Positions 27,901-48,563 of a DNA stretch of 51,702 nt are shown piece by piece. How positions within the stretch are numbered: position 1 is the stretch's first letter; each line of letters begins with the position of its first letter. The position numbers were made by a program, and so were the translations under genes. The notes under the pieces were generated by a model. It made no database searches. It had not been told where the DNA came from and saw only the letters and a program-made list of their open reading frames with translations. The DNA is taken from IMG/VR virus record IMGVR_UViG_3300037483_000246, positions 1-51,702 of that record; one strand, given 5' to 3'. The DNA is from a virus (lineage: Duplodnaviria > Caudoviricetes).

Positions 27901-30900
27901 ACGCGAGCAGGCAAATGAGCTCGGCATCAAGTACGGCCAGCAGTCTGTGCTCACAAGGGATGGCTTGGTGTACCCCGACGGAACAGTAAACCCGGCCAAG
28001 AGCGTCACGGTGCACGCCAAGGCCCCGAGCGACTTCTACAGCACGATCCCGTCTACCGGCGCGACGTTCGCGGTGGAGATCGACTTCGGGAAGACGCTGC
28101 CCACCTCCGACGAGCGCGTAGGCAGCGTCACCGTCGAGGCAGTGCACTTCTCCCGCGCGCCGCGCAGTTCGTTGTCCGGGCGCATGTACGGCACCGGCAT
28201 CAAAGGCGCGGAAGCTCGCCGCCTGGGCGATCCGAATGCGCACCCGAAGATCAAGCAGCGCGTCTCCTTCTACGTGGACGAGGGCCAGGGTGTACGCCCT
28301 GAACCGGGTGTGGGCGCCTTCCGCCACGGGCTGACGCTGGATAACATCTACGACGGCGCGAAGAACCCGCTCGGGTTTCCCACCGAATCGAACGCCTTCG
28401 AGGCTGCAGTCGTCGAGGCTGGCTTCGATGGCTACTACATCCGCGAAGGCTTCGGCAATCAAGGCGTCGGCGTGCTGCTGGGCGACGCGACGCAGGACGT
28501 GGAGGTGGACATTCCGCCCCGTCCGACCAAGTACGCCCAGGCCCTGAACGAAGTCGCCGAGACGCTGCCCCCCGCCGGCAAGCTGGAACAGCAAGACCTC
28601 GCCGATCTGCGCAAGCTCTGGGCAATGTACGCTGCCAGCGAGACGGCTGCGCAGTACGGCACGGCCCAGGTGAAGGCACAAGCCGACGACGCACCGGGTA
28701 TTCAACGCGCGCTGAGCGATACCCTCGACGCCGTGATGCAGGGCATGGTGGACACCTCGGTGAAGAACATCACCCACTGGCACAAGGGCACGCAGCGTCT
28801 TCCTGCCGGCGGCTTCGCCTATGAGATCGTGAGCGGAAACAGCAGCGCGGCAGTCTACCTCGACATGGCCGACCGTTCGATGCAGATCGATATCACCCGC
28901 TGGGGTGAAGGCCGCGGTGGTTCCGGCGTCTACAAGGCGCTGCTCGATTTCGCGCAAGCGAACGGCTTCGTCTTCTACGGCGACGCGCAGGGCATCTCGG
29001 TGGCCGGCATCAAGCGTCGCTTGGAGAACTTGCTGTCGCACGCCCTGCAGTCGGGCGACACCAGCTACATGCGCTTGCACCCGAAGCAGATCGACTTCAT
29101 CGAGCAGGAGACGGGCCTGAAGGTGAACTGGACTGACGACTCGAAAAATAATGTTGAACAAATGCTAAATGCGTCGTATAATTTAGCCAACCTCGACATA
29201 CCGGAGTTGAAAAATGTCTACTTCGATTTTACGCAACGTGAATTCATCGCCCGAAATACAGGCGCTCCTGCCGATCTTGCAGGACTCGTCGCCAAGGCCC
29301 GACGGAACCCTGACCAGGTACGAAGAGAAGGTGCGCCTGGCTTGGCCTCTGCTAAGCGCACGGTTTTCGCGAACACCCTACTTTCGGCAAAAGGGGAAAC
29401 TCGACGTACCGTTTTTGCTGAGATGGCTCGGCTCTCACTGGAACAACTACCCGGAGCCGAACGCCTCCTTTATCAGTCGGAACCCCCTGGAGAACGTCCA
29501 CCTTTCTATAGCGCCCTGACCCGCGCGTTCGAAGAAACCAAGCTGGCCAAGGCCTCGCCGGATCAATGGCTCGGCACCCTCAAGAGCTTGACGCAGAAAG
29601 GCGTCAAGCCGATGGAGATCGAATACACCGGCCTGCAAGAAAGGCTTGAAGTGCGTAAGGACAAGGCTGACAGCTGGCACGTCTACGAAAATGGCGTCGT
29701 GGTGTCTACGCGTCCCGCCACCGATCCGAAGCCGGAGGGCGCCGACGTGCGCCTGTACCAGCCTTCCAAAGTGGTGACCAAGGAAGAGATCATCGACTTC
29801 TTGAAAGAGAACGCCGTCACGGTGGAGCCGCGTGTCTACGGCGGCGAAGGCGTCGTGACTGAGTTCGACTTCACGTTTGGCCAATGGGAAACTGAAGAAC
29901 CGGACGAGAACTGGCTGCGAGATCAGGCGCAGGATCGCGTGCGCGGAATGGGTGAGGACGAACTGAGCAGCGGGTTGGAAGGCATCGCGGACGAGGACGA
30001 AGATGGCAGCATTGACACCGCCATCGAGGCTGTGAGGGGCTACATAAACGAAAGCGGCCCAGGCCAGAGCGCACAGAAAACGGAAGGTACTAGAGGGTAC
30101 AAGCTGTTTGAAAAACTCGTGGAGGGCGCCTTCGAACAGGAGCGCGAGAATTACTGGGACGATGGCGATTCGCCGCAGAACAGTAGCGTCGAAGTCGAAG
30201 CTGGCGGGCGCACTTTCAACTTCACCTGGACGAACAGTTACCACGAGCACTTCTTGTACGCTCACGAGTCGAACAAGAGCGTTGAAATCTCGGGTCGCAG
30301 CATAGACAGCGCCGACATCGAATCCGCGATCCGTGAATTCCTTGGCACGGAGTACGGCATCTCCGAAGTCGATGACGAAAAAGCGCCGAAGTTCGAAAGC
30401 TACAAGCTCTCTGGCGGCGAGAACTATCGCGAGCGTTTGCTGCTGAACAAGTCGCACAAGGGCGAGACGTTCAGCTATACCAACCACTTCGACGACGACA
30501 ACATCATCGGCCACTCGCGTGTCGATGACCGTGAAGTCCCGGTCGAGGCCATCGAAAAAGAATTCCCCGAACTCGCCGCGCGCATGAAGGCTGAAGGCCG
30601 CACGACAGCGAAGGTGTACTTCATCGAAGAGGTGCAGTCCGACTGGGCACAGCAAGGGCGCGAACGGCCTGAAGCGCAGAAGCATTACGCGATGGAAGAC
30701 CTCGTGTTTAACGAGAAGGCCTCGGCGAGAAACGACGATAGACTTGCGCGGATCAAAGTCAGCGCGATCAGCGACCGCAGTGGGTACACCCACACAAGGG
30801 ATAGGGGGCTGGTGAAGGACCAGGTAGAGTTCTGGCACCTGCACACGGAAGAAGACTTGAGTGCCTACCCCAGCGAGATATACACCACGAAGGAAGCAGC

Positions 30901-33900
30901 AGAGAGAGGTCGCTTTGCGGTGGCGGGTGCCGTGTGGGTTATTGAGGCACCGAATCAAGTCTTCGAGATTTTGCGCGCCCAGCACCCCACAGTCGAAGAG
31001 GCAAAAAGGTATATCGCGGACGTGAAGACCACGATGGTTCCGGGCGAGATGACGGCGTTCGAACTGGCTCGCAAACAGGGGGCCTTGCAGCGCAAGCTGG
31101 ACGCGCTCAGGAAAGAAGCTCGCGCCCTCGCGCAAGGCCCTGAAGATGACGCCACAAACGCTGAGTACCAGAGCGCCCAAGATCGCATCGCGGAGGTGCG
31201 GGGCCAGTTAGAAGAGATCGGCAACAAGGTCGTCACACCTGGCGCCTTCGTAGAATCCACCGATGCATGGGTTGGCCTCGTGGTGAAGGACGCAGTACAC
31301 CAGGCTGCGAAGGGTGGCTTCGACCTGATCTCGTGGACAACTGGCGACCAGCAGACGCAGCGCTGGTCTTACGGCCTGCGCAAGCAGGTCGATCTGATCG
31401 AGTGGACGAAATCCGAAGAGGGGAAGATTCACATCGTCGCGATGCAGCGCGGCGTCACCAAGGCGGACACCAAGTACGGCGAGAACGATCTCTCTGCCGC
31501 TATCGGCAAGACGATGGCGAAGCGCATCATCGAAGACCCGAACCAGAACGGGTTCATCGAAGGAGAGGGCATCACCGTCGCCGACCTCGGCATGACGAAG
31601 TTCTACGGTGACACGGCAGGACTCGATCCCTCTGGCAAGCCCGCGATCCTCACCAAGGTGGCGAATCAGGTGGCGAAGAAGCTGGGCGGCGGGCAGGTGG
31701 TAGCCGCCAAGCTGAACCCTGCCTTCGGCCGCATGTCCGACAGGGAGAAAGGGAGCGCGCTGAATGTGCAACCTACGTTTGAAGTCACGCTTCCCATGCG
31801 TGTCGCCGCGTTACAGGGACAGGTGCTGTTCCAGTCCTTCACGGTTGACGCTGAGCAGGTGAAGAAGCTGCAGGAGAAGCTGGACACATCGAAGGTAGAT
31901 GCAGAAGAGTATTACAAGCGCGGCTATCGCATCGACGATTTCGGGAGCATGGACCGCACCGGCGAGGACCTGTCGGCAAGCGATATGTTCCAGAAGAACC
32001 GCGGTACTTTCAACCCTGACACGCTGACGATCAGCCTGCTGAAGGATGCAGACCTGACCACGTTCTTGCACGAGACGGGGCACTTCTTCCTTGAAATGGA
32101 AGCAGCGCTCGCGAGCGATCCTCGCGCCACGCCGGAGATGCGCGACGACTTCACGAAGGTGCTGAACTGGTTCGGCGTGAAAGACCTGACCGAGTGGAAC
32201 GCGCTCTCCTTCGAGCAGAAGCGCTCGCACCACGAGAAGTTCGCACGCGGCTTCGAGGCGTACCTGTTCGAAGGCAAGGCGCCGTCGAATGATCTGCGCT
32301 CGATCTTTGCATCCTTCAAGACCTGGCTGCTGCACGTCTACCGCAGCATCACGAACCTGAATGTCGAACTCACCGACGAAGTGCGTGGGGTGTTCGACCG
32401 CATGCTCGCATCGGAAGAAGCCATCGCGACTGTGCAGCGTCGCACGGGCCTGACTGACGCGATGATCGAGGCGGCGAACTCGAAGGACAAGGCCGCCTAT
32501 CTCGCGCTCAATCTTGCGGCGGGGGATAACGCCGGCGACGACTTGCAGCGTCGTTCGCTGCGCGACATGAAGTGGCTGTCGAACGCCAAGTCGCAAGAGT
32601 TGAAGAAGCTGCAGCGCGAAGCGGCCAGCAAGCGCAAGGAAGTTCGCGCCGAAGTGACCGCCGAGGTGAACGCAGAGCCAATCAACCAGGCACGCGCGTT
32701 CCTGCGCAAGGGCACGACCACCGGCCCCGATGGCGAGAGCATCCAAGCCACCGAAGGGTTCCGCCTGAACCACGCTATCGTCGCGGAGATGTACCCCGAG
32801 ACGATGCTGGCCCGCCCTGATCTGTCGAAGCTCCGCGGCATGACAGAAGCCGATGGTCTGCATCCCGATCTGGTTGCGGATATGTTCGGCTTCCGCTCTG
32901 GCGACGCGCTGATCCGCGAGCTGATCGACGGGGAGAACCCCCGCGACAAGATCAACGGCATGACCGATCAGCGCATGATGGAGCGCTACGGCGACCTGAA
33001 CGACGAACGGGCCATCGAGAACGCGGCCAACTCCGCCGTGCACAACGAGGCGCGCGCACGCTTCATGGCCACCGGGCTGAAGATGCTGTCGGACTCCAAG
33101 CTGCCCGCCTCGCAGATTCAGAAAGCTGCCACGGATGCCGCCAACCAAGCCATCGCTGCGAAGAAGGTGCGCGATCTGCACCCGGCCAAGCACATCGCCG
33201 CCGAGACGAAAGCGAACAAGGACGTGCTGAAGAACGCAGCCAAGGACGTGAAAGCGGCGCAGCGCGCACAGCGCTCGGCCCTGCTGAACAATCGGCTGGC
33301 GAAGGCTTCGCAGGATGCCCAGGAAGAAGTGCGCAAGGGTGTGGACCGCATGACGCGCACGCAGAAGGCTGCCGCTCAGAAGAACATGCGCGGCGAGTAC
33401 CTGATCCAGTTGAACGAGTTGCTGGCTCGTTTCGATCTGCGCAAGAGCACGACCCTCAAGGAGATCGACGCGAAGCGCACGCCGTTGGCTGAGTGGCTGG
33501 CAGCCGAGTCGGAGCGCATGTCTGCGGTGATGCCAGACATCCCGGCTTGGATTCTGAACGAAGCGAACCGCACCTCCTACAAGGACCTGACCGTCGAGGA
33601 GTTCCGCGGGGTGGTGGATACCGTCAAGCAGCTGGAGATGATGGCCCGCCGTGAGGAGACGCAGTACCAGGCCATCCGCGGCATGAAGTTCGCCGAGGAG
33701 CGCAAGGCCCTGCTGGATCGCATCCGCGAGTTCCACCCTGAAGCCTTCGATCTGAATGGTGAACCCCTCGGCATGGCGCCGAAGTTCGTCAAGCATCTCG
33801 GCGACAAGGTGGAGGAGCTTGGCGAGAAGTTCGCCGGTGAGTTCCTGAACGCGGAGACGCTGGTGAACCTGCTTGAAGGCGGCGAGTTCGGCATCGCTCA

Positions 33901-35761
33901 CGAGTCGCTGCTGGGCCGCATGAGCAAGCGCGCGGACTGGAAGGCCACCCGCCTCGAAGGCATCTACAACAAGATGGCCCCGCTGTTCGGGCAGTACAGC
34001 GTGAAGGAGCGCTACGACTTCGCACGCAAGGACATCGGCGCCCCCATCGGCATGAGCCTCACCCGCGAGAACGCGCTGGTCGTCGCACTGCTGCACGGCA
34101 ATACCGAAGGCCGTGAGCGCTTGGCCAACTATGGCTGGAGCGAGAAGAAGCAGGAGGAGATAATCAACTTGCTGGACGACCGCGACATGGCCCTCGCGCA
34201 AGGTATCTGGGACTTGTTCGACAACGATCTCTGGCCCGAACTGAAAGACCTGAATGACCGCACCCGCGGCAAGGCCCCGCCCAAAGTCGTCGCGATCCAG
34301 GTCTTCCACAGGGGCGGCACCTACCGTGGTGGCTACTTCCGCCTGAAGTACGACACGAACCTGGACGAGCGCGCGTACCGCATGGACGAAGGCGCCGCCG
34401 TGAAGGAACTCCTCGGGGGCGGACTGGGCATGTCGGCGAAGACCGGCCAAGGCGCCAGCACGGAGCGCAAGCAGAACGTCACCATGCGCCCCCGGCTTGA
34501 TCTCGGTGTGTTCGCCGAAGCCGTGTCCGAGACGGTGCACGACATCGCCTACCGTGAAGCAGTGGCGGACACGATGCGCATGCTGAACGACACCCGCGTG
34601 CAGAACACGATCAAAACCGCTGCCGGCGTGCCAGCGTACCGTGCCCTCGTCACCCGCGTGCGCGAGATCGCAGCGCCTCCCCGCAACCCTTCCGGCTTCG
34701 TCGAGAAGACGCTCAGCATCGCGCGCAAGAACACGATTGTCACCCTAATGTCCGGGGTGAACACCGCGTTGCAGAACTTCACCGGCTTTGTTTCAGCCAC
34801 TGCGCGGGTGAATCCCGGTAGGCTGGCGAAAGAGATCGCGCTGTTTTACAGCACGAAGATGACCGAGCGGGTGAACTTTGCTATGGAGCATTCGGAGTAC
34901 ATGCGCCATCGGCACAACGCCTTCGAGCGCGATCTACAAAACGAGATCAAGAAGATGACTGTGAACGCAAGCATCATGCCTGACACCGGCGCATGGCTGA
35001 CACTCATGGCCCTTGTAGATAAGGGCACCAGCGTTCCCGTCTGGAATGCGGCATTCCACGAAGGAATGGTAAAGTACGAAAACGATAATGGTAAAGCCGC
35101 AGACTATGCCGACCATGTTGTGCGCCAGTCGCAAGGTTCTGGCCGTGAACTGGACGTGGCCCAGATCATGTCGGGCCACGGGGGCTATGGCCAGCTGAAG
35201 CGCGTCTTCACCATGTTCTACAGCTACTTCAACGCGCAGCTTGGCATGCTGGTGCGCAGCGGTGTTATAAACGCACACGCCTCCAAGAAGAACCCCGCGA
35301 TGGCGGTGGCTCGTTTCACGAAGGACTTCATGGTGATCGTGATCCTGCCGGCAGTGCTGACGGCTATGATCTTCAAGAAGGACGACCCGGATGAAGACCC
35401 GGAGAAGTGGCTGCACAAGTATAGCCACGCCATCGCGATGTACGGCTTGGCCATGATCCCTCTGGTGCGCGATGTCGGCAGCTTCGCATGGGCATCTTTC
35501 GACCACGATGTCAAGAACTACGGGTACAAGATCACCCCGGTGCAGTCAGCTGGCGAGGGGGTTGTCAAGGGTGCCGTAGCCGCGCGAGACATCGCCGTAG
35601 GGGAAGGCGACGACAGGGACCTGAAGAACCTCATAATGGGCACAAGTTTCGCTGTAGGCCTACCCGGCAAGTTGATCTCGGACATCACCCTTGGGACGAA
35701 GGCTTTCTTGGAGGGTGAAGCCGGCCCCGAGGCAATCCTGTTTGGCCCCCCGAAAAAGTGA
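24932..35761 (+). CDS. giant internal virion / ejection polyvalent protein (3609 aa)
   Basis: Single open frame; HDFFGH..GEENAW..ETRGQNSW domain, DUF3293-like TAENP domain, ART-like HFS...GFDGY domain, GNAT-like domain, FYS...EEVQSDW domain, HETGH..HEKFA zincin, helical C-terminal core. Confidence 0.9.
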   Translation: MADDALDAALIQFKQEQDDRTTLGATASIHQAITQNPDEMARYNAISRKTGFDPLLIATDPAVKVEAERRAKMQDIDLPGLVQTHPKTASALTDANLAALVSDDVGTLQNLENAFSRGLKGTLRGGDAGAIQESAEILNTISRIQSGELNDYGKISGASRYASLFAGVGGTPEAVEQKRIATERRLAENAVEFAQRTAGMKSTGASAEYERFSAEKGLGAFSALFDAPFKITGEVIAESMGAMLPAIPTIVGSGVGGGVRGLATATGLTSAGIEYANSLSGILTDMGVNLSDARAVREAMATPKFIEANRQAMVKAGVIGAFDAATAGVAGKMLRPTMLGNIAAQTVVQAAGGAAGEAVGSVASGQEVSLSAVLAEAIGEAPGGVVDVGLLAFNKARVKEQARPSEEIIRAEEAHAALTEISQTATSAKLRERDPAQFKAFMQSMVEDSDLKEVFVDGTVLRDALAQAPIEVQQKFAQDMPEVVRQIGEAAGTDGLVRVPVEDYATHVAGTELDATILPNLKTEVDGLTYSQAQEQVKGQTEQMKAEADQLLAEKEKDTEFQADAQQVYDALYSRIEGAKRFTPDANKKYAALQQAYFITRAHKMGIKPSELLARFDIRVTAERTPGAELEQGVTLLEGLPQPKMTLKTGAYTPKPYAPAHKAAREYANKAGIEYAPPRKYAKVNEARAAKIAAEYEKMPHAPNDPEVAKAYAQLIKEAVQQWDAMLSTGLKVEFIPEGAPDFYAENPHGFIDDIARNNHLWVFSTRAGFGTGQDFTPKDHPLLAETDIEISGQKALANDIFRAVHDFFGHAKDGVGFRAAGEENAWRAHAAMFSPLARRALTTETRGQNSWLNYGPFGEANRKAKAGETHFADQKAGLLPEWVSEEGREDVAPVPTPASSDYGFRRRAKARVATLDDFKPNKVKNLLAKTDWAILTAENPNAQQLSVEENAQRNADLRADLEAMGAKFVEVEGKYGGNVENSVAITGITREQANELGIKYGQQSVLTRDGLVYPDGTVNPAKSVTVHAKAPSDFYSTIPSTGATFAVEIDFGKTLPTSDERVGSVTVEAVHFSRAPRSSLSGRMYGTGIKGAEARRLGDPNAHPKIKQRVSFYVDEGQGVRPEPGVGAFRHGLTLDNIYDGAKNPLGFPTESNAFEAAVVEAGFDGYYIREGFGNQGVGVLLGDATQDVEVDIPPRPTKYAQALNEVAETLPPAGKLEQQDLADLRKLWAMYAASETAAQYGTAQVKAQADDAPGIQRALSDTLDAVMQGMVDTSVKNITHWHKGTQRLPAGGFAYEIVSGNSSAAVYLDMADRSMQIDITRWGEGRGGSGVYKALLDFAQANGFVFYGDAQGISVAGIKRRLENLLSHALQSGDTSYMRLHPKQIDFIEQETGLKVNWTDDSKNNVEQMLNASYNLANLDIPELKNVYFDFTQREFIARNTGAPADLAGLVAKARRNPDQVRREGAPGLASAKRTVFANTLLSAKGETRRTVFAEMARLSLEQLPGAERLLYQSEPPGERPPFYSALTRAFEETKLAKASPDQWLGTLKSLTQKGVKPMEIEYTGLQERLEVRKDKADSWHVYENGVVVSTRPATDPKPEGADVRLYQPSKVVTKEEIIDFLKENAVTVEPRVYGGEGVVTEFDFTFGQWETEEPDENWLRDQAQDRVRGMGEDELSSGLEGIADEDEDGSIDTAIEAVRGYINESGPGQSAQKTEGTRGYKLFEKLVEGAFEQERENYWDDGDSPQNSSVEVEAGGRTFNFTWTNSYHEHFLYAHESNKSVEISGRSIDSADIESAIREFLGTEYGISEVDDEKAPKFESYKLSGGENYRERLLLNKSHKGETFSYTNHFDDDNIIGHSRVDDREVPVEAIEKEFPELAARMKAEGRTTAKVYFIEEVQSDWAQQGRERPEAQKHYAMEDLVFNEKASARNDDRLARIKVSAISDRSGYTHTRDRGLVKDQVEFWHLHTEEDLSAYPSEIYTTKEAAERGRFAVAGAVWVIEAPNQVFEILRAQHPTVEEAKRYIADVKTTMVPGEMTAFELARKQGALQRKLDALRKEARALAQGPEDDATNAEYQSAQDRIAEVRGQLEEIGNKVVTPGAFVESTDAWVGLVVKDAVHQAAKGGFDLISWTTGDQQTQRWSYGLRKQVDLIEWTKSEEGKIHIVAMQRGVTKADTKYGENDLSAAIGKTMAKRIIEDPNQNGFIEGEGITVADLGMTKFYGDTAGLDPSGKPAILTKVANQVAKKLGGGQVVAAKLNPAFGRMSDREKGSALNVQPTFEVTLPMRVAALQGQVLFQSFTVDAEQVKKLQEKLDTSKVDAEEYYKRGYRIDDFGSMDRTGEDLSASDMFQKNRGTFNPDTLTISLLKDADLTTFLHETGHFFLEMEAALASDPRATPEMRDDFTKVLNWFGVKDLTEWNALSFEQKRSHHEKFARGFEAYLFEGKAPSNDLRSIFASFKTWLLHVYRSITNLNVELTDEVRGVFDRMLASEEAIATVQRRTGLTDAMIEAANSKDKAAYLALNLAAGDNAGDDLQRRSLRDMKWLSNAKSQELKKLQREAASKRKEVRAEVTAEVNAEPINQARAFLRKGTTTGPDGESIQATEGFRLNHAIVAEMYPETMLARPDLSKLRGMTEADGLHPDLVADMFGFRSGDALIRELIDGENPRDKINGMTDQRMMERYGDLNDERAIENAANSAVHNEARARFMATGLKMLSDSKLPASQIQKAATDAANQAIAAKKVRDLHPAKHIAAETKANKDVLKNAAKDVKAAQRAQRSALLNNRLAKASQDAQEEVRKGVDRMTRTQKAAAQKNMRGEYLIQLNELLARFDLRKSTTLKEIDAKRTPLAEWLAAESERMSAVMPDIPAWILNEANRTSYKDLTVEEFRGVVDTVKQLEMMARREETQYQAIRGMKFAEERKALLDRIREFHPEAFDLNGEPLGMAPKFVKHLGDKVEELGEKFAGEFLNAETLVNLLEGGEFGIAHESLLGRMSKRADWKATRLEGIYNKMAPLFGQYSVKERYDFARKDIGAPIGMSLTRENALVVALLHGNTEGRERLANYGWSEKKQEEIINLLDDRDMALAQGIWDLFDNDLWPELKDLNDRTRGKAPPKVVAIQVFHRGGTYRGGYFRLKYDTNLDERAYRMDEGAAVKELLGGGLGMSAKTGQGASTERKQNVTMRPRLDLGVFAEAVSETVHDIAYREAVADTMRMLNDTRVQNTIKTAAGVPAYRALVTRVREIAAPPRNPSGFVEKTLSIARKNTIVTLMSGVNTALQNFTGFVSATARVNPGRLAKEIALFYSTKMTERVNFAMEHSEYMRHRHNAFERDLQNEIKKMTVNASIMPDTGAWLTLMALVDKGTSVPVWNAAFHEGMVKYENDNGKAADYADHVVRQSQGSGRELDVAQIMSGHGGYGQLKRVFTMFYSYFNAQLGMLVRSGVINAHASKKNPAMAVARFTKDFMVIVILPAVLTAMIFKKDDPDEDPEKWLHKYSHAIAMYGLAMIPLVRDVGSFAWASFDHDVKNYGYKITPVQSAGEGVVKGAVAARDIAVGEGDDRDLKNLIMGTSFAVGLPGKLISDITLGTKAFLEGEAGPEAILFGPPKK

Positions 35762-40662: not shown

Positions 40663-40926
40663 TCACCCGGTTATGCGCAGCCACCGCGCTTTGAAGTAGC
40701 CAGGACACTCGGCGAGGGTAAACACCGGGGTTAGCAGCAGGTACGCCGCCGCTTGGAGGTAGCACTTGCGGCGCAACAGGGTGCCGGCCTCGAGCATTGC
40801 ATAGGCCCACACGGCCACGAGCAAGAACGGTGAGGACACCAGCAGGGCGACGAAAGCGAGCATCGCAGCATCATCAATCTTGTAGTCGCGAGGGTGAGCG
40901 TTTTTCCAGCGGGTGTATCGGTACAT
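40663..40926 (-). CDS. hypothetical membrane protein
   Basis: AGGAG RBS; two hydrophobic segments; downstream of promoter. Confidence 0.65.
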   Translation of the reverse strand: MYRYTRWKNAHPRDYKIDDAAMLAFVALLVSSPFLLVAVWAYAMLEAGTLLRRKCYLQAAAYLLLTPVFTLAECPGYFKARWLRITG

Positions 40927-40952
40927 GGCATTCTCCTAGGTAACTAGGGCCG

Positions 40953-40982
40953 AGTGTACATCAAGTGCTAAACGCTTGTCAA
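40953..40982 (-). promoter_or_regulatory. early promoter, shared-motif family
   Basis: TTGACA-18nt-TACACT; 18 nt identical to the 44825-44854 promoter. Confidence 0.75.
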
Positions 40983-41222
40983 GCGCCGCGCCCAGCCTTC
41001 CGCTGCTGCGTGCATCTTCGCGTTGAACCATCTGCGCACGGCGTAGGACCGCACAACCGAAATCACGGTGTAAAGCAAGCCGATGTAGAAGTTGTTCGCC
41101 AGCGTCAGGCTGGTGAAACCGAACAGCGGCAGGATCAGGAGGTTCGCGGCGAAGTTGATCCAGAAGCCGATGAACACATTCACCCACGCCTCGATAAAGG
41201 AACCGAGTTTAGTCTGGCCCAT
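40968..41222 (-). CDS. small membrane protein (DUF7220-like)
   Basis: Q.K..S.IEA..NV.IG ... SVVRSY.VRRWFN pattern. Confidence 0.75.
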   Translation of the reverse strand: MGQTKLGSFIEAWVNVFIGFWINFAANLLILPLFGFTSLTLANNFYIGLLYTVISVVRSYAVRRWFNAKMHAAAEGWARRLTSV

Positions 41223-41805
41223 TTGTTCGCTCCTCTAAAGGCACCACTGGATCGTCGCGGGTGTACTGACGCGGCGCCTTGTCTTTGTGCATCTCGATGA
41301 TCGCTGCCGTCTTGGCGTTGAGGTCGTCGTAGTCAATAAGGCTGATCGGCGGGCGGTCATCGTTCACCATGCCGTTGCGCTGCGCGTCGCGCAACACGAC
41401 GAGGGTAGACAGCGCCTTGACGACATGCGGCAGGCCGGAAGCGGGGTCAATGTCTTCGCCCTCCCACCAGGCCATGATGTGCCGTTGAAGTGCGTCATAG
41501 TAGACGGATGAACGGATACCCGCGATGCGGTAGTTGAACGCACCGTACTTCGCTTTGCCTTCCATCATGGCCACACCGATCTCGGCAAGCACGCCGGCAG
41601 GGAGCGTGGACATTGGCGCCTTCCTGCTACCGATGGCGTCCTTGGGGTTGGTGTCCTTACACGTATCGGAGGTCACCTGGATGTGACAGTCAAGACCGTC
41701 GTGGTGCTTCAACGGGAAGTTGCAAAGCTCGCAGATCGCCTCGGGGAAATTGTCGAGCAGGTATTCAAGCGATCTTACTGGAACGTGTTTATTAGTGAAC
41801 ATCAC
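41209..41805 (-). CDS. dATP/dGTP diphosphohydrolase-domain protein (DUF5664-like)
   Basis: NPKD..G..K.P, G..KYG.FNYR, YYDALQRH..AWW.GED.DP.SGLPH, DDRP. Confidence 0.85.
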   Translation of the reverse strand: MMFTNKHVPVRSLEYLLDNFPEAICELCNFPLKHHDGLDCHIQVTSDTCKDTNPKDAIGSRKAPMSTLPAGVLAEIGVAMMEGKAKYGAFNYRIAGIRSSVYYDALQRHIMAWWEGEDIDPASGLPHVVKALSTLVVLRDAQRNGMVNDDRPPISLIDYDDLNAKTAAIIEMHKDKAPRQYTRDDPVVPLEERTNGPD

Positions 41806-44789: not shown

Positions 44790-44824
44790 GTTGTTCTCCT
44801 TGGTTTGTTTGACAGCGTGCAGCC

Positions 44825-44854
44825 ATGGTACAGCACATGCTAAACGCTTGTCAA
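44825..44854 (-). promoter_or_regulatory. early promoter, shared-motif family
   Basis: TTGACA-18nt-TACCAT. Confidence 0.75.
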
Positions 44855-44873
44855 GTACAGTCGATACCTTATT

Positions 44874-46994
44874 TTAATCCTTCCGGTATCTGTACGCCTC
44901 GAAGCCCGCAGCTGCAAGGGGCAGCCCCTCGGCCCACTCAGGCACCGTGGCCATGATCCCTGCAAGGCCATCGACGCTGTGATCCAGGTCGTCGGGCGCC
45001 TCGGTGATAAGCTCGTCGTGCACGGTGAGCACGACTTCGTAGCCTTGCCCCTCCGCTATCGGCATCGCGTGGGCCATGTTGTCGCGCGCTGAAGCCTGGC
45101 AGATGTTCTCGAACAACTTGCCGCCGTAGGTGCCCAGCCGTTGCCACTGGCGGGTGTACTGGTTCACACCCATGTAGCTGCAGCTGCCGCTGTCGTCCAC
45201 CTGCGGCTGCGGGTAGCACAAGAAGCGGCCCGAGGGGAGACGGATGCGCAGCCAGGCTCCATCCTTGCGGAATGCAACGCGGCGCACGAGGAACCACTCA
45301 CCCGGATGATTCACCGCGGAGATGAACCCCTGCTGCAGTTCCTTCCAATAGGAAGAGATAGCAGGGTGCGCTGCACGCCACAGAGACTTCAGCGAGTTGC
45401 ATACGACATAGACATCATCGGGCAGGCCATACGTCGTGCGGCGCTGCTTCAGCGTCCACTTCAGGAAGTCGCGAGACTCCTTCACCGTGTCTTCGGGGAG
45501 CAACGGCAGCGCCTTCGCAGCCATGTCGTCGAGGTCGATCCGGTAAGTCTCGGCACCCGTGACGAACGCACCGACACCGCCTTCGTATTGCAGCATGAGT
45601 TCCTGCACCTTACCGATCTGACGCATGGTGCCGTCGCCGTTCTTCTTGTTGTCGAGCACGACCGCGGGCGGCACGTTGAATGACTTGCTGTAGGCCATCA
45701 CGTAGTTGTCGAACTCGACAGCGCCGGAGTCGTAATCGCGGAAGTATTTCAGCTTCCACTCTTCCCCCGCGATCCAGGCGGCCTTACGGCCTTCGATGTT
45801 CGACAGGTCGGCGACGACCAGCTTGCGCCCTGGCGGCGCGATGATGCAGCCCCGCACGGCGTTCGAGATGACCTGCATCACGTCGTCGTAGAAGAACTCG
45901 CAGGCGTTCGACTTGATAACCTCGATGCCGAACTCGATGTCCTTCTGCTTCATGTCGGGACGCTTCAAGTTCTGCGGCTGGAACATGCGCCCTGACCAGC
46001 GCCCGGTACGCGCAGCACCATCGAACTGCAACAGGCCGCGCAGGCGCCCATCCTCGGACGTGCAGCGAAGCAGTGTGTTGTACTTGCTCACGCTCGTGGT
46101 GCTGGCCTGGAGGCGATTGGCCAGCAGTTCGCGCAGCGCCTCGGGCAGATCGGGATCGTTCAGCCGGCGCTCGATGGTGTCCATTTGGAGATCGGGCAGT
46201 GACACGCCGTAGGATTCCAGCAGGTGTTCGAGCAGCTTGTCGCGCTGCGTGGTGGCCTGGACGGCGCCTTCCGTCAGTACCTGCGCCCGTGATGCAAGTA
46301 CGTCTTTCGCTCGCTCTGCAGCAAGGACAGCGCCTCGCGCAAGGGCACGATCAACGGCCACGCCTCGCGCGTTGATTTTCTGGTCCAGAAGCCACAGGTA
46401 GTACTCGAAGCCGCGGTAGTTCCAGCGCGGGACTTTCCGGTAGACTTCACGCATCGAGGTGATGTCGGCCTTGGCGTATTCGATGAAGCGTTGCCACTCT
46501 TCGGGGTGCGTTTCACGGGTAGCTCTCCTAAGTTTCGTTTTCTTCGGTCGGGGTTTGCAGAACAGTTGAATTAGGGCCTTGCCTTCCTTGTGCTTCGCCT
46601 TGTCGGCACCGATGTTCAGCACGGCGCAGAGCGTGTCAAGAGAGCCGGGCAGCGAGTGTGCATACGCGCAGGCCATTGTGTCGAACACGCGCAAGTGCGG
46701 CAGCGGCGGGATGTCATACAGCTGGCCGACAGCGTTCAGCACCGTGAGGTCGAACATACCGCCGTTGTGCCATACCGTGCGGCGTTCTTGATCCTCCAGC
46801 GCTTCGCGCAAGTCGTCGGGCATCGGCTCGAAGGTCGTGAGGTCCCAGCACTTCGGCTCGCCTTCGCCTATGGCGTAGGGGAACAGCATGACTTCAGCTT
46901 CGGTGGCGTAGACGTGCGCGCCGCACTTCTTCAAGTCGATTGTCGAGAACGTCTCCAGGTCGGCGAAGAGTTCGTTGGTGATGGCGTGGCTCAT
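44874..46994 (-). CDS. polA: family A DNA polymerase with 3'-5' exonuclease
   Basis: DLET exo I, RTGRWSG..QPQNL, ADLSNIEGR (motif A), RQIGKVQEL (motif B), VHDE (motif C). Confidence 0.95.
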   Translation of the reverse strand: MSHAITNELFADLETFSTIDLKKCGAHVYATEAEVMLFPYAIGEGEPKCWDLTTFEPMPDDLREALEDQERRTVWHNGGMFDLTVLNAVGQLYDIPPLPHLRVFDTMACAYAHSLPGSLDTLCAVLNIGADKAKHKEGKALIQLFCKPRPKKTKLRRATRETHPEEWQRFIEYAKADITSMREVYRKVPRWNYRGFEYYLWLLDQKINARGVAVDRALARGAVLAAERAKDVLASRAQVLTEGAVQATTQRDKLLEHLLESYGVSLPDLQMDTIERRLNDPDLPEALRELLANRLQASTTSVSKYNTLLRCTSEDGRLRGLLQFDGAARTGRWSGRMFQPQNLKRPDMKQKDIEFGIEVIKSNACEFFYDDVMQVISNAVRGCIIAPPGRKLVVADLSNIEGRKAAWIAGEEWKLKYFRDYDSGAVEFDNYVMAYSKSFNVPPAVVLDNKKNGDGTMRQIGKVQELMLQYEGGVGAFVTGAETYRIDLDDMAAKALPLLPEDTVKESRDFLKWTLKQRRTTYGLPDDVYVVCNSLKSLWRAAHPAISSYWKELQQGFISAVNHPGEWFLVRRVAFRKDGAWLRIRLPSGRFLCYPQPQVDDSGSCSYMGVNQYTRQWQRLGTYGGKLFENICQASARDNMAHAMPIAEGQGYEVVLTVHDELITEAPDDLDHSVDGLAGIMATVPEWAEGLPLAAAGFEAYRYRKD

Positions 46995-47452
46995 TTGCGT
47001 TTTTGGGGAAACCCGGCCTTGCTCAATTCAGCCATCAGGTCGTTCAATGCTGGAAGTTGCTTGGTCTTTTCTGGAGGCTTCGGGATATACGCATCAAGCT
47101 CCGGTATGGCTGCGCGCATTTGACTATCGGTGGAGAACTGATAAACCACGTTCTTGACGTGCGCTCGAAGGTCTTTGCGTATCTTTTCGGATGCCTGATG
47201 ACGCAGCAGGATGGCTCTCAGTTCGTCGTGCGTTTTCCCCCCGGTGGGGAGGTAGTTAAACCCTGGGCAGTATTCAACTTTTACCCATCCGCGCGTTGTC
47301 TTGTCTTCCCAGAGCTTGCGGATTTTATCCGGCATCTTGGAAACGCAAACAGCGAGCGCATCCTTGTCGCGCTGGTCGCTTGAGTATTCATGCGGGGTAT
47401 TACCCATCACAGCGTTGACAATGGACTCTTTTAAGGCGTTCGTAAGCTTCAT
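46991..47452 (-). CDS. Nmad5-like (nucleotide-modification-associated) protein
   Basis: MKLT...KESIV start and L......ST..Q....PEL..YIP end; adjacent to the polymerase. Confidence 0.6.
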   Translation of the reverse strand: MKLTNALKESIVNAVMGNTPHEYSSDQRDKDALAVCVSKMPDKIRKLWEDKTTRGWVKVEYCPGFNYLPTGGKTHDELRAILLRHQASEKIRKDLRAHVKNVVYQFSTDSQMRAAIPELDAYIPKPPEKTKQLPALNDLMAELSKAGFPQKRK

Positions 47453-47478
47453 GTTCTTCCCCTAATAAAATTCGTTAT

Positions 47479-47619
47479 AAAGCCGTTGCCGGGATTACCT
47501 GCCTAATAACTTGCGGGCGGTGAGCAGGTTGCGTACGCGCTATTCCTTTGGCACTCTATTGAAACAAGATCACGAGGGATAGAGTGTTGAGCATCCCGGC
47601 CTTTATGTCGTGTGGCTTT
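47479..47619. ncRNA. multibranch structured element
   Basis: AAAGCC/GGCTTT, GCCGGGAT/ATCCCGGC, ACCTGC/GCAGGT and CACTCTAT/ATAGAGTG nested pairings. Confidence 0.55.
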
Positions 47620-47668
47620 TTCATTCGCACGTTGGTTGACGCTAGGAACACCGCCCCCTCTATGTGTT

Positions 47669-47744
47669 TGGTGCGAAGTACGTGCGGGACTCGAACCCGC
47701 GACCGCCCCTGTAGGGAACTCTACCAGCTGAGCTAACGCACTTC
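47669..47744 (-). tRNA. atypical tRNA-like RNA (collapsed anticodon arm, 9-bp acceptor stem, encoded CCA)
   Basis: GAAGTGCGT TA GCTC AGCTGGTA GAGT TCCC-TACA-GGGG CGGTC GCGGG TTCGAGT CCCGC ACGTACTTC GCACCA. Confidence 0.8.
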
Positions 47745-47748
47745 TTCA

Positions 47749-47874
47749 TGTTGGCACGGATTTCGCGCGCCGCGTGCCAACAGAGAGCGATCCTACAGTC
47801 TCGGACAAGCAGCTGGCAATTTTTCGTTTTGTCACAGCTGTCGAGCTTTGAAAGCAGGATCGCTTTCTGTTGGC
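47749..47874. ncRNA. overlapping long hairpins
   Basis: TGTTGGCACG/CGTGCCAACA (47749-47782) and GCCAACAGAGAGCGATCCT/AGGATCGCTTTCTGTTGGC (47776-47874). Confidence 0.6.
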
Positions 47875-47976
47875 CCTCGCCCGAAGGCGAGGACCTTGTT
47901 GGGAAGGTTAAGGGCAGCAACCCCACGCATCCAAGCAGAGCAGTGTTGGCCCTCGCCCGAAGGCGAGGACCTTGTT
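47868..47976 (-). repeat. two identical 33-nt hairpin repeats separated by a 43-nt spacer
   Basis: AACAAGGTCCTCGCC-TTCG-GGCGAGGGCCAACA at 47868-47900 and 47944-47976. Confidence 0.95.
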
Positions 47977-47978
47977 AC

Positions 47979-48563
47979 TTACGCCAGAGCTTCTTCGTCC
48001 GCTGGCGCACCCAGGTCTTCGAAGCCGGCAACACTCGGAGCGCTACCCGAGAAGGCGTCGCCGTCCTTCACGAACTGGATCACGGAGAAGGAGGCACGCA
48101 CGCCAGGGTTTTCACCGGACTGGCAGTAGATGCTGACCTTCGCTTTCACGTAGCAACCAGCATACGGCTTGCCGTCGTCCGCCGTCAGCGGCGATGTGTC
48201 GCGGTCGATGATCGCGGGGCGGGGGGCCGCACCACCGTTTCGCGTCTTCGCGTTGCGGTGAGCGGACAGAGCCATCATGCCGGCATAGCCTTCGTAGTCG
48301 CGCAAGTCGCCGCTGAGGTAGCAATACTGGTTCTTCTGGCCGGCGTATTCCTTCAGCTTCGAAGCTGCCTTGTCTTTCCACTCCGTTTCGGCGGCCTTCT
48401 TGATCGCGGCGTTGACCGCTTTGTCGGACGCGCTGCCCGGCTCGACCAGGATGGTAGCGTTCCAGCGCGGGCGGTCATCGCCGGGTTTGAACTCCACGGG
48501 GTCCCACAGATCGGGGAATGACAGGCGACCTTCGATGATGAAATCGGTTTCTGCTTGGGCCAT
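47979..48563 (-). CDS. ssDNA-binding/annealing protein (DUF2815-like)
   Basis: RLSFP, YAGCYV, NPGVRA....IQFVKDGDAF, acidic C-terminal tail. Confidence 0.9.
   Translation of the reverse strand: MAQAETDFIIEGRLSFPDLWDPVEFKPGDDRPRWNATILVEPGSASDKAVNAAIKKAAETEWKDKAASKLKEYAGQKNQYCYLSGDLRDYEGYAGMMALSAHRNAKTRNGGAAPRPAIIDRDTSPLTADDGKPYAGCYVKAKVSIYCQSGENPGVRASFSVIQFVKDGDAFSGSAPSVAGFEDLGAPADEEALA

What the first reader, a model, noticed from the sequence alone, without database searches (positions are those of the whole stretch)
47669..47744. 76-nt tRNA mimic that trades anticodon arm for acceptor arm
Seen: canonical U8-A9, D arm (GCTC AGCTGGTA GAGT), variable loop and T arm (GCGGG TTCGAGT CCCGC). The anticodon arm is only a 4-bp stem with a 4-nt loop (TCCC-TACA-GGGG, like a shrunken Val-UAC arm). 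The acceptor stem is 9 bp followed by GCACCA, so total length stays 76. Every stem still pairs, which argues against random decay. Inference: it cannot decode normally. It may be an elbow/CCA decoy for tRNA-targeting defence toxins or synthetases, a non-ribosomal aminoacyl donor, or an RNase P signal.
Basis: partly seen in the sequence, partly recalled or inferred. Interest (0 to 1): 0.8.

Follow-up and report, generated by a model that had tools for sequence, protein, structure and literature searches.

The report
Anticodon-less threonine-tRNA look-alike in phage
A sediment phage carries a tRNA-shaped gene, derived from a threonine tRNA, that has lost six bases of its codon-reading arm and so cannot decode; it may be a working tRNA mimic or cutting mark, or simply a freshly broken tRNA gene.

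Summary
Rfam calls a tRNA (44.2 bits, E 3e-6) and ARAGORN calls nothing. All 22 proposed pairs form: a 9-bp acceptor helix, a 4-bp D stem, a 4-bp stem with a 4-nt loop in place of the anticodon arm, and a 5-bp T stem.

It cannot decode. It is not YrlA, tmRNA, allo-tRNA or an attP remnant.

New findings here:
- The body is threonine-tRNA-like, and one 6-nt block deletion from a canonical arm gives the present arm. "Every stem still pairs" is therefore no argument against decay.
- The element sits in a 106-nt cassette (47671-47776) that none of 4 close relatives carries. They hold two other structured cassettes between near-identical flanks.
- In 46 similar shortened-arm tRNA look-alikes from viral contigs, acceptor helices run on by 2 or more pairs far more often than in normal tRNAs (9/46 against 6/135 and 8/307). 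One unrelated phage (L266) combines the same D and T arms, a 5-nt UUACA loop and a helix of about 13 bp.

This scan has noted anticodon-less phage tRNA look-alikes before on other DNA.

Best reading (0.4): a selected non-decoding tRNA-body module in the replication-operon leader. A dead tRNA-Thr gene (0.3) is not excluded. No RNA data exist.

The parts
47669..47744 (-). It has a 9-bp acceptor helix, D arm, mini-hairpin, variable loop, T arm and the tail GCACCA.
   Evidence: Sequence; pair list and energies; fold.
47676..47742 (-). Rfam tRNA match in the 7-bp acceptor register: A1-U72 through the discriminator U.
   Evidence: RF00005, 44.2 bits, E 3.1e-6; alignment.
47736..47744 (-). 5' strand of the 9-bp acceptor helix. 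The two outer pairs go beyond the canonical 7.
47718..47733 (-). D arm: a 4-bp stem and an 8-nt loop with A14, G15, G18, G19 and A21.
   Evidence: The same D arm occurs in bacterial tRNA-Thr and tRNA-Lys genes.
47706..47717 (-). Mini-hairpin replacing the anticodon arm: 4 bp including one U-G pair, with loop UACA. It is 6 nt shorter than a canonical arm.
   Evidence: One 6-column gap block against tRNA-Thr genes.
47701..47705 (-). 5-nt variable loop, the same letters as in many bacterial tRNA-Thr genes.
47684..47700 (-). T arm: a 5-bp stem and a 7-nt loop carrying the GGTTCGAGTCC motif.
47675..47683 (-). 3' strand of the 9-bp acceptor helix.
47669..47674 (-). Single-stranded tail of 6 nt. Its CCA lies 3 nt after the helix.
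   Evidence: Sequence.
47671..47776 (-). 106-nt window-specific cassette (hairpin interior plus tRNA look-alike). In relatives 89 or about 180 other letters take its place.
   Evidence: Joints 47670>47777 and 47670>47944 in contigs of runs X2 and X3; alignments and printouts.
47750..47781 (-). 9-bp hairpin with a 14-nt loop, directly 5' of the look-alike. Its outer letters are shared with the long closing stems of the relatives' cassettes.
   Evidence: Sequence; comparison; centroid fold.
47790..47819 (-). Sigma-70-like promoter match, TTGCCA-18-TAGGAT, 9 of 12. It is shared with type-B relatives but not with type A.
   Evidence: a consensus match only.
47979..48563 (-). Upstream gene: Gp2.5-like ssDNA-binding and annealing protein.
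   Evidence: phrog_112, E 4e-31.
46991..47452 (-). Downstream gene: a 153-aa protein with an Nmad5 domain. It is absent from the close relatives.
   Evidence: PF18757, 33.8 bits.
44874..46994 (-). DNA polymerase, the next gene of the same operon.
   Evidence: phrog_17, E 1e-103; 57.5% identical to Bordetella phage BPP-1 polymerase.

Best explanation
This is a non-decoding RNA module derived from a threonine-type tRNA. It keeps the acceptor, T-arm, D-arm and elbow body of a tRNA, but six nucleotides of the anticodon arm are gone. It is accessory cargo in a swap-prone slot of the structured leader between the SSB gene and the Nmad5 and DNA-polymerase genes of a BPP-1-like podophage.

Shown:
- the anatomy;
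- the tRNA-Thr ancestry;
- the co-orientation with the operon;
- the cassette nature;
- the recurrence of the same design in other phages.

Inferred:
- It is transcribed with the replication operon, or from the weak promoter 40 nt upstream.
- Host tRNA-handling proteins (RNase P, 3' trimming enzymes, the CCA-adding enzyme, T-loop and D-loop modifiers) recognise its body.
- It acts in cis as a tRNA-shaped processing and stability mark that separates or caps the leader of the polymerase mRNA, as t-elements do in plant mitochondria.
- Because the acceptor helix runs on for two extra pairs, cutting may be inefficient, and the module may partly stay embedded as a protein-binding knob.

My odds are about 0.6 that it is a selected non-decoding module at all. 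Of that, roughly two thirds go to cis-acting and one third to trans-acting.
For: 1. The tRNA body is intact, with all 22 pairs and the universal elbow nucleotides, and scores 44.2 bits.

2. It lies on the same strand as all flanking replication genes, with no terminator-like site on that strand and a promoter-like site just upstream.

3. Three different closed-stem structured cassettes occupy the same slot between near-identical flanks: the window, type B (L002/L189, L187) and type A (L186, L188). This fits a generic RNA-level role for the slot.

4. The type-B cassette also folds as a 7-bp (extendable to 10-11 bp) stem directly abutting a 5-bp hairpin with a 7-nt loop, which is an acceptor/T minihelix layout.

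5. The design recurs. Of 114 pattern hits in viral contigs, 53 (46 unique) have intact acceptor, D and T stems with a shortened middle.

6. Acceptor-end features differ from working tRNAs in those 46 elements:
- The helix is extended by 2 or more pairs in 9 of 46, against 6 of 135 bacterial tRNAs (p 0.003) and 8 of 307 viral tRNAs (p 6e-5).
- G at +1 is found in 18 of 46, against 202 of 321 viral and 115 of 138 bacterial tRNAs.
- The window's element shares both oddities: A at +1 in the 7-bp register, and 2 extra pairs.

7. L266, from an unrelated phage, has the same D and T arms, a 4-bp stem with a 5-nt UUACA loop and an acceptor helix of about 13 bp.

8. L010 (SSB 37% identical) has a look-alike with a 5-bp stem and a 4-nt loop 98 nt downstream of its SSB gene.

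9. t-elements are a precedent for tRNA-like mRNA processing marks (PMC1920247, passages read).
Against: - The element is a singleton. None of 4 close relatives' loci carries it. Of 4 runs laid, only the likely source run holds it. No second copy was found in IMG/VR by three exact patterns.
- There is therefore no conservation or covariation for this element itself.
- One 6-nt deletion in a tRNA-Thr gene explains the short arm.
- A 9-bp helix is a poor RNase P substrate by established knowledge. Chen et al. name the 7-bp stem as a major determinant of cleavage (PMC4201824).
- The promoter match is weak (9 of 12) and is absent from type-A relatives.
- The class statistics come from rows that are not phylogenetically independent, were chosen by my own pattern, and carry a register caveat for the viral control.
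- The relaxed T-loop motif that picks up the type-B minihelix was chosen after I had seen that cassette.
- The class's end features are close to what unconstrained sequence would give. They show loss of the normal constraint, not a new one.
Confidence: 0.4

Rival explanations
1. It is a recently broken accessory tRNA-Thr gene. The phage acquired a threonine tRNA gene, and a single 6-nt deletion removed the end of the 5' stem strand and the first four loop nucleotides, including two anticodon bases. The rest looks perfect only because there has been no time to decay. It has no function.
For: - MAFFT places one 6-column gap block between the element and two annotated phage tRNA-Thr genes and one bacterial tRNA gene of the same body that has a TGT (Thr-type) anticodon. 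The acceptor letters are partly shared.
- 22 of the 25 best-listed cultured-phage matches are annotated tRNA-Thr.
- Bacterial genes with the same D and T arms are mostly NGT (Thr) or TTT (Lys).
- The letters left in the loop fit positions 36-38 of an NNU-anticodon tRNA (my reading).
- Accessory tRNA genes come and go in this phage group. The type-B relative has a normal tRNA-Ile(TAT) that the window lacks.
- The element is a singleton.
Against: - The presumed parent would itself have been an odd tRNA. It would have A1-U72, two extra acceptor pairs (seen in only 6 of 135 and 8 of 307 normal tRNAs) and no CCA at 74-76, although the relative's tRNA-Ile encodes CCA.
- The same combination of a short arm and a long acceptor helix occurs in L266.
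- Phage genomes are compact, and this cassette was gained or kept in a slot that always holds structured RNA.
Confidence: 0.3
2. It is a trans-acting tRNA-body decoy. The RNA is released and binds or absorbs a host factor that recognises the acceptor end, T arm or elbow and not the anticodon. One example would be a defence toxin that modifies or cuts the CCA end or the acceptor stem. This would spare the host tRNAs that the phage needs.
For: - The body and elbow are intact while decoding is impossible.
- The design recurs in many unrelated viral contigs. 18 of 53 have another ARAGORN tRNA within 1 kb and 35 of 53 have none.
- It is accessory and variable between close relatives, as counter-defence cargo usually is.
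- A promoter-like site lies upstream.
- That tRNA-targeting defences and phage tRNA countermeasures exist is recalled knowledge. I read no paper on it here.
Against: - No partner is known, and no tRNA-related enzyme gene was found in the ORFs scanned.
- There is no terminator and no defined 3' end.
- The CCA is not at the canonical distance.
- There are no expression data.
- The slot holds non-tRNA-like cassettes in relatives.
- A search for the terms tRNA mimic, phage and decoy found no paper on such RNAs.
Confidence: 0.2
3. It is aminoacylated and serves as a non-ribosomal aminoacyl donor, perhaps for the neighbouring Nmad5-domain protein.
For: - A free acceptor-like end with a nearby CCA.
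- An Nmad5 (nucleotide-modification-associated) gene lies directly downstream, and only in this phage.
Against: - There is no G3-U70 pair, no long variable arm and no anticodon. By recalled identity rules, the ThrRS determinants (G1-C72, C2-G71, G35, U36) are absent.
- The co-occurrence with Nmad5 is a single case.
- The Nmad5 match covers only residues 85-137.
Confidence: 0.03
4. It is an integration-site (attP) remnant that copies part of a host tRNA gene.
For: Relatives such as BPP-1 are temperate and encode an integrase. L010's provirus ends near a tRNA-Leu.
Against: - No Phage_integrase domain is present in the complete 51.7-kb record.
- Both halves of the tRNA are present, not only a 3' part.
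- The element lies inside the replication operon.
- No identical host tRNA was found among 119 bacterial or archaeal genome loci that share its D and T arms.
Confidence: 0.02

Closest known systems
Canonical phage or bacterial tRNA-Thr (Rfam RF00005)
   Same: It has the same acceptor, D, variable and T architecture and the same universal nucleotides. It scores above Rfam's cut-off. Its best full-length matches in cultured phages are annotated tRNA-Thr.
   Different: - The anticodon arm is 6 nt short, with no anticodon.
- A1-U72 replaces G1-C72.
- The helix runs on for 2 more pairs.
- There is no CCA at 74-76.
- ARAGORN rejects it.
t-elements of plant mitochondria (Forner et al. 2007, PMC1920247; passages read)
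   Same: Both are non-canonical cloverleaves that keep the GGTTCRANYCC T-arm motif. Both are embedded in transcribed leaders or trailers, where RNase P or RNase Z cutting sets mRNA ends.
   Different: The system is different (organelle against phage). No transcript ends are mapped here. The extended acceptor helix may hinder cutting.
YrlA Y RNAs bound by Ro60/Rsr (Chen et al. 2014, PMC4201824; passages read)
   Same: Both are tRNA-mimicking domains that cannot decode. They are found in bacteria and phages and are recognised by tRNA enzymes.
   Different: - YrlA is permuted: its acceptor is a closed stem-loop and its ends leave from the anticodon side.
- YrlA lies next to a TROVE gene.
- Here the order is that of a normal tRNA, there is no TROVE gene, and no Rfam family other than tRNA was listed at E up to 1.
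Anticodon-less tRNA look-alikes of phages, as noted earlier by this scan and re-sampled here; L266 is the nearest single example
   Same: The acceptor, D, T and elbow parts are intact, and a short capped stem or a bare linker replaces the anticodon arm. The acceptor ends are often non-canonical.
   Different: - This element has no conserved relatives of its own.
- Its loop (UACA) is not a GNRA or UNCG cap.
- Its short arm is explained by one deletion.
mascRNA cut from MALAT1 (recalled; not read here)
   Same: It is a tRNA-like RNA with a reduced anticodon arm, cut out of a longer transcript by RNase P and RNase Z.
   Different: It is a eukaryotic nuclear lncRNA system. The resemblance is by analogy only.

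Membership tests
Canonical tRNA (RF00005) | Cloverleaf with acceptor, D and T arms and the conserved tertiary nucleotides; score above Rfam's gathering cut-off. | tested here: met
   44.2 bits against a cut-off of 29. U8, A14, G15, G18, G19, A21 and the T-loop are present.
Canonical tRNA (RF00005) | 5-bp anticodon stem with a 7-nt loop carrying an anticodon. | tested here: not met
   A 3-4-bp stem with a 4-nt loop. ARAGORN finds 0 genes.
Canonical tRNA (RF00005) | 7-bp acceptor stem, one discriminator base, then CCA (encoded or added). | tested here: inconclusive
   The helix continues to 9 bp and the encoded CCA lies 3 nt beyond it. The mature ends are unknown.
YrlA / bacterial Y RNA (RF02553) | Encoded next to a Ro60/Rsr (TROVE) gene. 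| tested here: not met
   PF05731 gives 0 matches in the complete record.
YrlA / bacterial Y RNA (RF02553) | [quoted passage not shown] | tested here: not met
   The order here is acceptor-D-mini arm-variable-T-acceptor. The topology of YrlA is taken from PMC4201824. tRNA was the only family listed at E up to 1; two lower-scoring overlapping same-clan matches were left out of the listing.
tmRNA | tRNA-like domain plus a tag reading frame. | tested here: not met
   ARAGORN finds no tmRNA. Only tRNA was kept among clan matches.
allo-tRNA (8/4 or 9/3; Mukai et al., PMC5389517; only the listing and the start of the abstract seen) | 12-bp acceptor branch made of a longer acceptor stem and a shortened T stem, with a working anticodon arm. 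| tested here: not met
   The T stem is 5 bp, so the branch would be 9/5 = 14 bp, and there is no anticodon loop.
tRNA-like processing marks (t-elements) | Non-canonical cloverleaf with a conserved T-arm motif inside a transcribed, co-oriented non-coding stretch. | tested here: met
   The GGTTCGAGTCC motif is present, and the element lies on the same strand as the flanking genes in a 525-nt gap.
tRNA-like processing marks (t-elements) | Transcript ends coincide with the element's ends. | not testable with these tools
   No RNA holder is listed for this DNA.
Anticodon-less phage tRNA look-alikes (a class of this scan; not found in print by my searches) | Intact acceptor, D and T stems and elbow, with the anticodon region shortened by 3 or more nt. 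| tested here: met
   The same criteria passed 53 of 114 pattern hits.
Anticodon-less phage tRNA look-alikes | The shortened form is kept among diverged relatives. | tested here: not met
   Absent from 4 of 4 close relatives' loci. No other copy was found.

The most novel reading that the evidence does not exclude
The element belongs to an undescribed kind of phage RNA. These would be tRNA bodies whose anticodon arm is shrunk and whose acceptor helix is lengthened or closed, so that they are not released as tRNAs. Instead they would stay as tRNA-shaped knobs on leader RNAs. There they would recruit or absorb a host or defence protein that reads the acceptor end or the elbow. They would be exchanged as cassettes at a hot spot in the replication operon.
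Probability: 0.12. Interest if true: 0.75.

Novelty: new variant of a known kind. Interest (0 to 1): 0.4.

Why it matters
If selected, this is one more case of phages keeping tRNA bodies for something other than decoding. I found no paper describing such phage RNAs, although this scan keeps meeting them.

This instance adds three things:
- a clear parent type (tRNA-Thr) and a one-step origin;
- a slot where structured RNA cassettes are swapped between near-identical phages;
- a measurable class trait, namely that the acceptor ends are freed from the constraints of working tRNAs.

That trait gives a way to tell mimics from freshly broken genes. If the element is only a broken tRNA-Thr gene, it is ordinary.

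Tried and rejected
- blastn of the 601-nt region against cultured phages found no match.
- Exact and gapped patterns for the element or its 3' half in IMG/VR gave 0 hits, or only L266. The conserved-flank patterns gave only the contig of L002.
- Rfam at the E-value threshold on 10 relatives' loci found no tRNA-like match at the slot. At the gathering threshold on 20 loci it found only L041, a tRNA with a 46-nt insert.
- ARAGORN on 45 loci found only L010.
- YrlA reading: rejected.
- attP reading: rejected.
- allo-tRNA, tRNA-Sec and tmRNA readings: rejected on stem lengths.
- No RNA holder is listed for this DNA. The four runs laid are DNA contigs. The parts that X2-X4 do not cover are not evidence.
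- No tRNA-related enzyme was seen among the ORFs scanned. Small ORFs were not all scanned.
- Literature: four searches found no description of anticodon-less phage tRNA look-alikes. Supplements are closed, so the YrlA phage lists of PMC4201824 could not be checked.
- I did not build a covariance model, because there is only one sequence of this element.
- The viral control has a register problem (194 of 307 at extension 1). I therefore use only the class of 2 or more extra pairs.
- The T-loop motif was relaxed after I had seen the type-B cassette.

Full report
WHAT IS THERE

The window is a complete 51.7-kb virus record; CheckV rates it 100% complete. The finding lies on the minus strand.

Rfam's tRNA model matches 47742..47676 at 44.2 bits. 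The cut-off is 29, and E is 3.1e-6 in the window and 2.4e-8 locally. This is the only Rfam match in the window. ARAGORN calls no tRNA or tmRNA.

- a 9-bp acceptor helix with one G-U pair;
- U8 and A9;
- a 4-bp D stem with an 8-nt loop carrying A14, G15, G18, G19 and A21;
- a 4-bp stem (one U-G pair) with the loop UACA where the 17-nt anticodon arm should be;
- a 5-nt variable loop;
- a 5-bp T stem with a canonical T loop.

The cloverleaf with 9 acceptor pairs costs -28.2 kcal/mol. The MFE is -29.0. The fold energy alone is unremarkable, at z -1.53.

The CCA lies three nt beyond the helix, not one. The figure of "76 nt" follows only from stopping at that CCA.

CONTEXT

All genes from about 41 to 51 kb run on the minus strand. 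They include a DUF2800/PD-(D/E)XK exonuclease, a Gp2.5-like SSB, a 153-aa Nmad5-domain protein, the DNA polymerase and a helicase. The gene order matches Bordetella phage BPP-1, whose polymerase is 57.5% identical.

The look-alike sits in the 525-nt gap between the SSB gene and the Nmad5 gene, on the same strand. A weak sigma-70-like match (TTGCCA-18-TAGGAT) ends about 40 nt upstream, and no terminator-like site lies on that strand. The record has no TROVE/Ro60 gene and no tyrosine integrase.

RELATIVES

Four independent close relatives (SSB 87-91% identical) cover this gap: L002/L189, L187, L186 and L188. The roughly 215 nt downstream of the element are nearly identical in all of them. The stretch upstream is nearly identical only in type B (L002/L189, L187); in type A (L186, L188) it also differs. 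None of the four has the look-alike.

Type B carries 89 other letters in its place. Type A carries about 180 other letters. All three versions are closed by a long stem with similar outer letters.

Contigs of three other runs confirm the break points. There are joints 47670>47777 with 89 letters between (X2, X3) and 47670>47944 with 180 letters between (X2). Only X1, which is probably the source sample, holds the look-alike. So the element is part of a 106-nt cassette (47671-47776) in a swap-prone slot.

The type-B cassette is not recognised by Rfam. It does fold as a 7-bp stem, extendable to 10-11 bp, that directly abuts a 5-bp hairpin with a 7-nt loop. That is an acceptor/T minihelix layout. 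I note that I relaxed the T-loop motif after seeing this cassette.

The type-B phage has a normal tRNA-Ile(TAT) with encoded CCA and a strong promoter elsewhere in its genome. The window lacks that gene. A distant relative, L010 (SSB 37% identical), has a look-alike with a 5-bp stem and a 4-nt loop 98 nt downstream of its SSB gene.

ORIGIN

Of these 120 hits, 117 have normal spacing, and most are tRNA-Thr (NGT) or tRNA-Lys (TTT). Many have the same variable loop.

Against cultured phages, 22 of the 25 best-listed matches are annotated tRNA-Thr. I aligned the element to two annotated phage tRNA-Thr genes and to one bacterial tRNA gene of the same body that has a TGT (Thr-type) anticodon. It differs from them by a single 6-column gap block, and it shares part of the acceptor letters.

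Read on the sequence, the present arm equals a canonical arm of the form CCC-yU / 7-nt loop / AGGGG from which six consecutive nt were removed: the last two of the 5' strand and the first four of the loop. The loop letters that remain fit positions 36-38 of an NNU anticodon loop.

So one deletion explains the short arm and its pairing.

THE WIDER CLASS

A pattern for a common D loop and T loop with a shortened spacing hit at least 115 viral-contig loci. My script recovered 114 pattern matches in those loci. Of these, 53 (46 unique sequences) have a 5/5 T stem, at least 3/4 D stem and at least 6/7 acceptor stem, with the middle shortened.

Further counts on these elements:
- 18 of 53 have another ARAGORN tRNA within 1 kb.
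- 13 of 53 are themselves called by ARAGORN, mostly as "tRNA-???".
- CCA is encoded at 74-76 in 2 of 46.
- The acceptor helix runs on by 2 or more pairs in 9 of 46. ARAGORN-called normal tRNAs show this in 6 of 135 cases in the bacterial loci (Fisher p 0.003) and 8 of 307 in the viral loci (p 6e-5).
- G at +1 is found in 18 of 46, against 202 of 321 viral and 115 of 138 bacterial tRNAs.

Caveats: the rows include families of related sequences, my own pattern chose the set, and the viral control has a register problem at extension 1.

The class values are close to what unconstrained sequence would give, about 14% for two extra pairs. They therefore show that the normal end constraints of working tRNAs are lifted while the body is kept. 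The window's element shares both oddities.

L266 comes from an unrelated phage (portal, terminase, antiterminator). It has the same D and T arms, a 4-bp stem with a 5-nt UUACA loop, and an acceptor helix of about 13 bp with one mismatch.

Earlier notes of this scan describe anticodon-less tRNA look-alikes in many other phages. I treat these notes as leads only.

WHAT IT IS NOT

- YrlA is permuted and sits beside Ro60 (PMC4201824, passages). Here the order is that of a normal tRNA and there is no TROVE gene.
- tmRNA, tRNA-Sec and allo-tRNA (8/4 or 9/3) do not fit the stem lengths. For the allo-tRNA paper I saw only the listing and the start of the abstract.
- An attP remnant is unlikely. There is no integrase, both halves of the tRNA are present, and no identical host tRNA was found.

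HOW IT MOST LIKELY WORKS

Shown:
- a tRNA-Thr-derived body that cannot decode;
- its co-orientation inside an operon leader;
- its cassette nature;
- the recurrence of the design.

Inferred: it is transcribed with the operon, and tRNA-handling proteins read its body.

I put about 0.6 on its being a selected non-decoding module. I favour a cis role as a tRNA-shaped processing or stability mark for the polymerase-operon leader, for two reasons. First, the slot always holds some closed structured RNA. Second, there is a precedent in the t-elements of plant mitochondria (PMC1920247, passages). The two extra acceptor pairs argue that cutting may be poor, and that the module may partly remain embedded.

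A trans-acting decoy gets 0.2. A freshly broken tRNA-Thr gene gets 0.3. The broken-gene reading is favoured by the singleton status and the one-step origin, and disfavoured by the non-tRNA-like acceptor end. Nothing here tests expression, because no RNA holder is listed.

VERDICT

The element is a new variant of a known kind (tRNA-like elements). This particular copy has no conservation of its own. Interest is 0.4.

Noticed in passing
window 47453-47670 (-), small ORF 47556-47624: The roughly 215-nt leader downstream of the look-alike is almost identical in all 5 sequences compared. It contains a 22-codon ORF with an identical peptide in 5 of 5. The only two nucleotide differences fall on third codon positions. 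I saw no obvious ribosome-binding site.
   Followed up: partly
window 47868-47976: Two copies of a strong hairpin of about 33 nt (7-bp stem, UUCG loop) follow the SSB stop codon. The close relatives have one copy. Run depth is raised there, as expected for a repeat.
   Followed up: partly
L002 617-702 (also L187, L189): The type-B cassette at the same slot folds as a 7-bp stem (up to 11 bp) abutting a 5-bp hairpin with a 7-nt loop, plus one long arm. This is an acceptor/T minihelix layout that Rfam does not recognise.
   Followed up: partly
L388 1501-1576 (genome of L002); window about 40911-40967 and 44817-44855: The type-B relative carries a normal tRNA-Ile(TAT) with encoded CCA behind a TTGACA-18-TAATAT promoter, at a site that is empty in the window. 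A 39-nt stretch around that promoter is 87% identical to window 44817-44855, so it may be a repeated phage promoter.
   Followed up: partly
window 24932-35761 (+): A 3609-aa ORF has LPD22, DUF3293 and LPD37 domains. It is a large polyvalent protein of the kind carried by phages and conjugative elements.
   Followed up: no
window 41209-41805 (-) and 46991-47452 (-): A protein with the N-terminal domain of dATP/dGTP diphosphohydrolases (PF18909, 81.9 bits) and an Nmad5-domain protein hint at nucleotide-pool or DNA-base modification in this phage.
   Followed up: no
L015 5-82 (also L019, L022, L023, L024): A 78-nt tRNA-like element in five related contigs has a perfect 7-bp acceptor stem (8 bp by my own reading of the flanking bases), a 7-bp hairpin with a 4-nt loop in the D-arm position and a canonical T arm. 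ARAGORN does not call it, and it scores below the cut-off for tRNA-Sec.
   Followed up: no
L041 2806-2903: A tRNA match (37.4 bits) has a 46-nt insert in the anticodon region, upstream of an SSB homologue.
   Followed up: no
L082, L083, L087, L109, L118, L132, L142, L145, L159, L162, L177, L180: A group of shortened-arm tRNA look-alikes from viral contigs shares acceptor letters of the form TGGAAnG (one begins CGGAA) but has varied mini-hairpins in the middle. It may be a conserved family.
   Followed up: no
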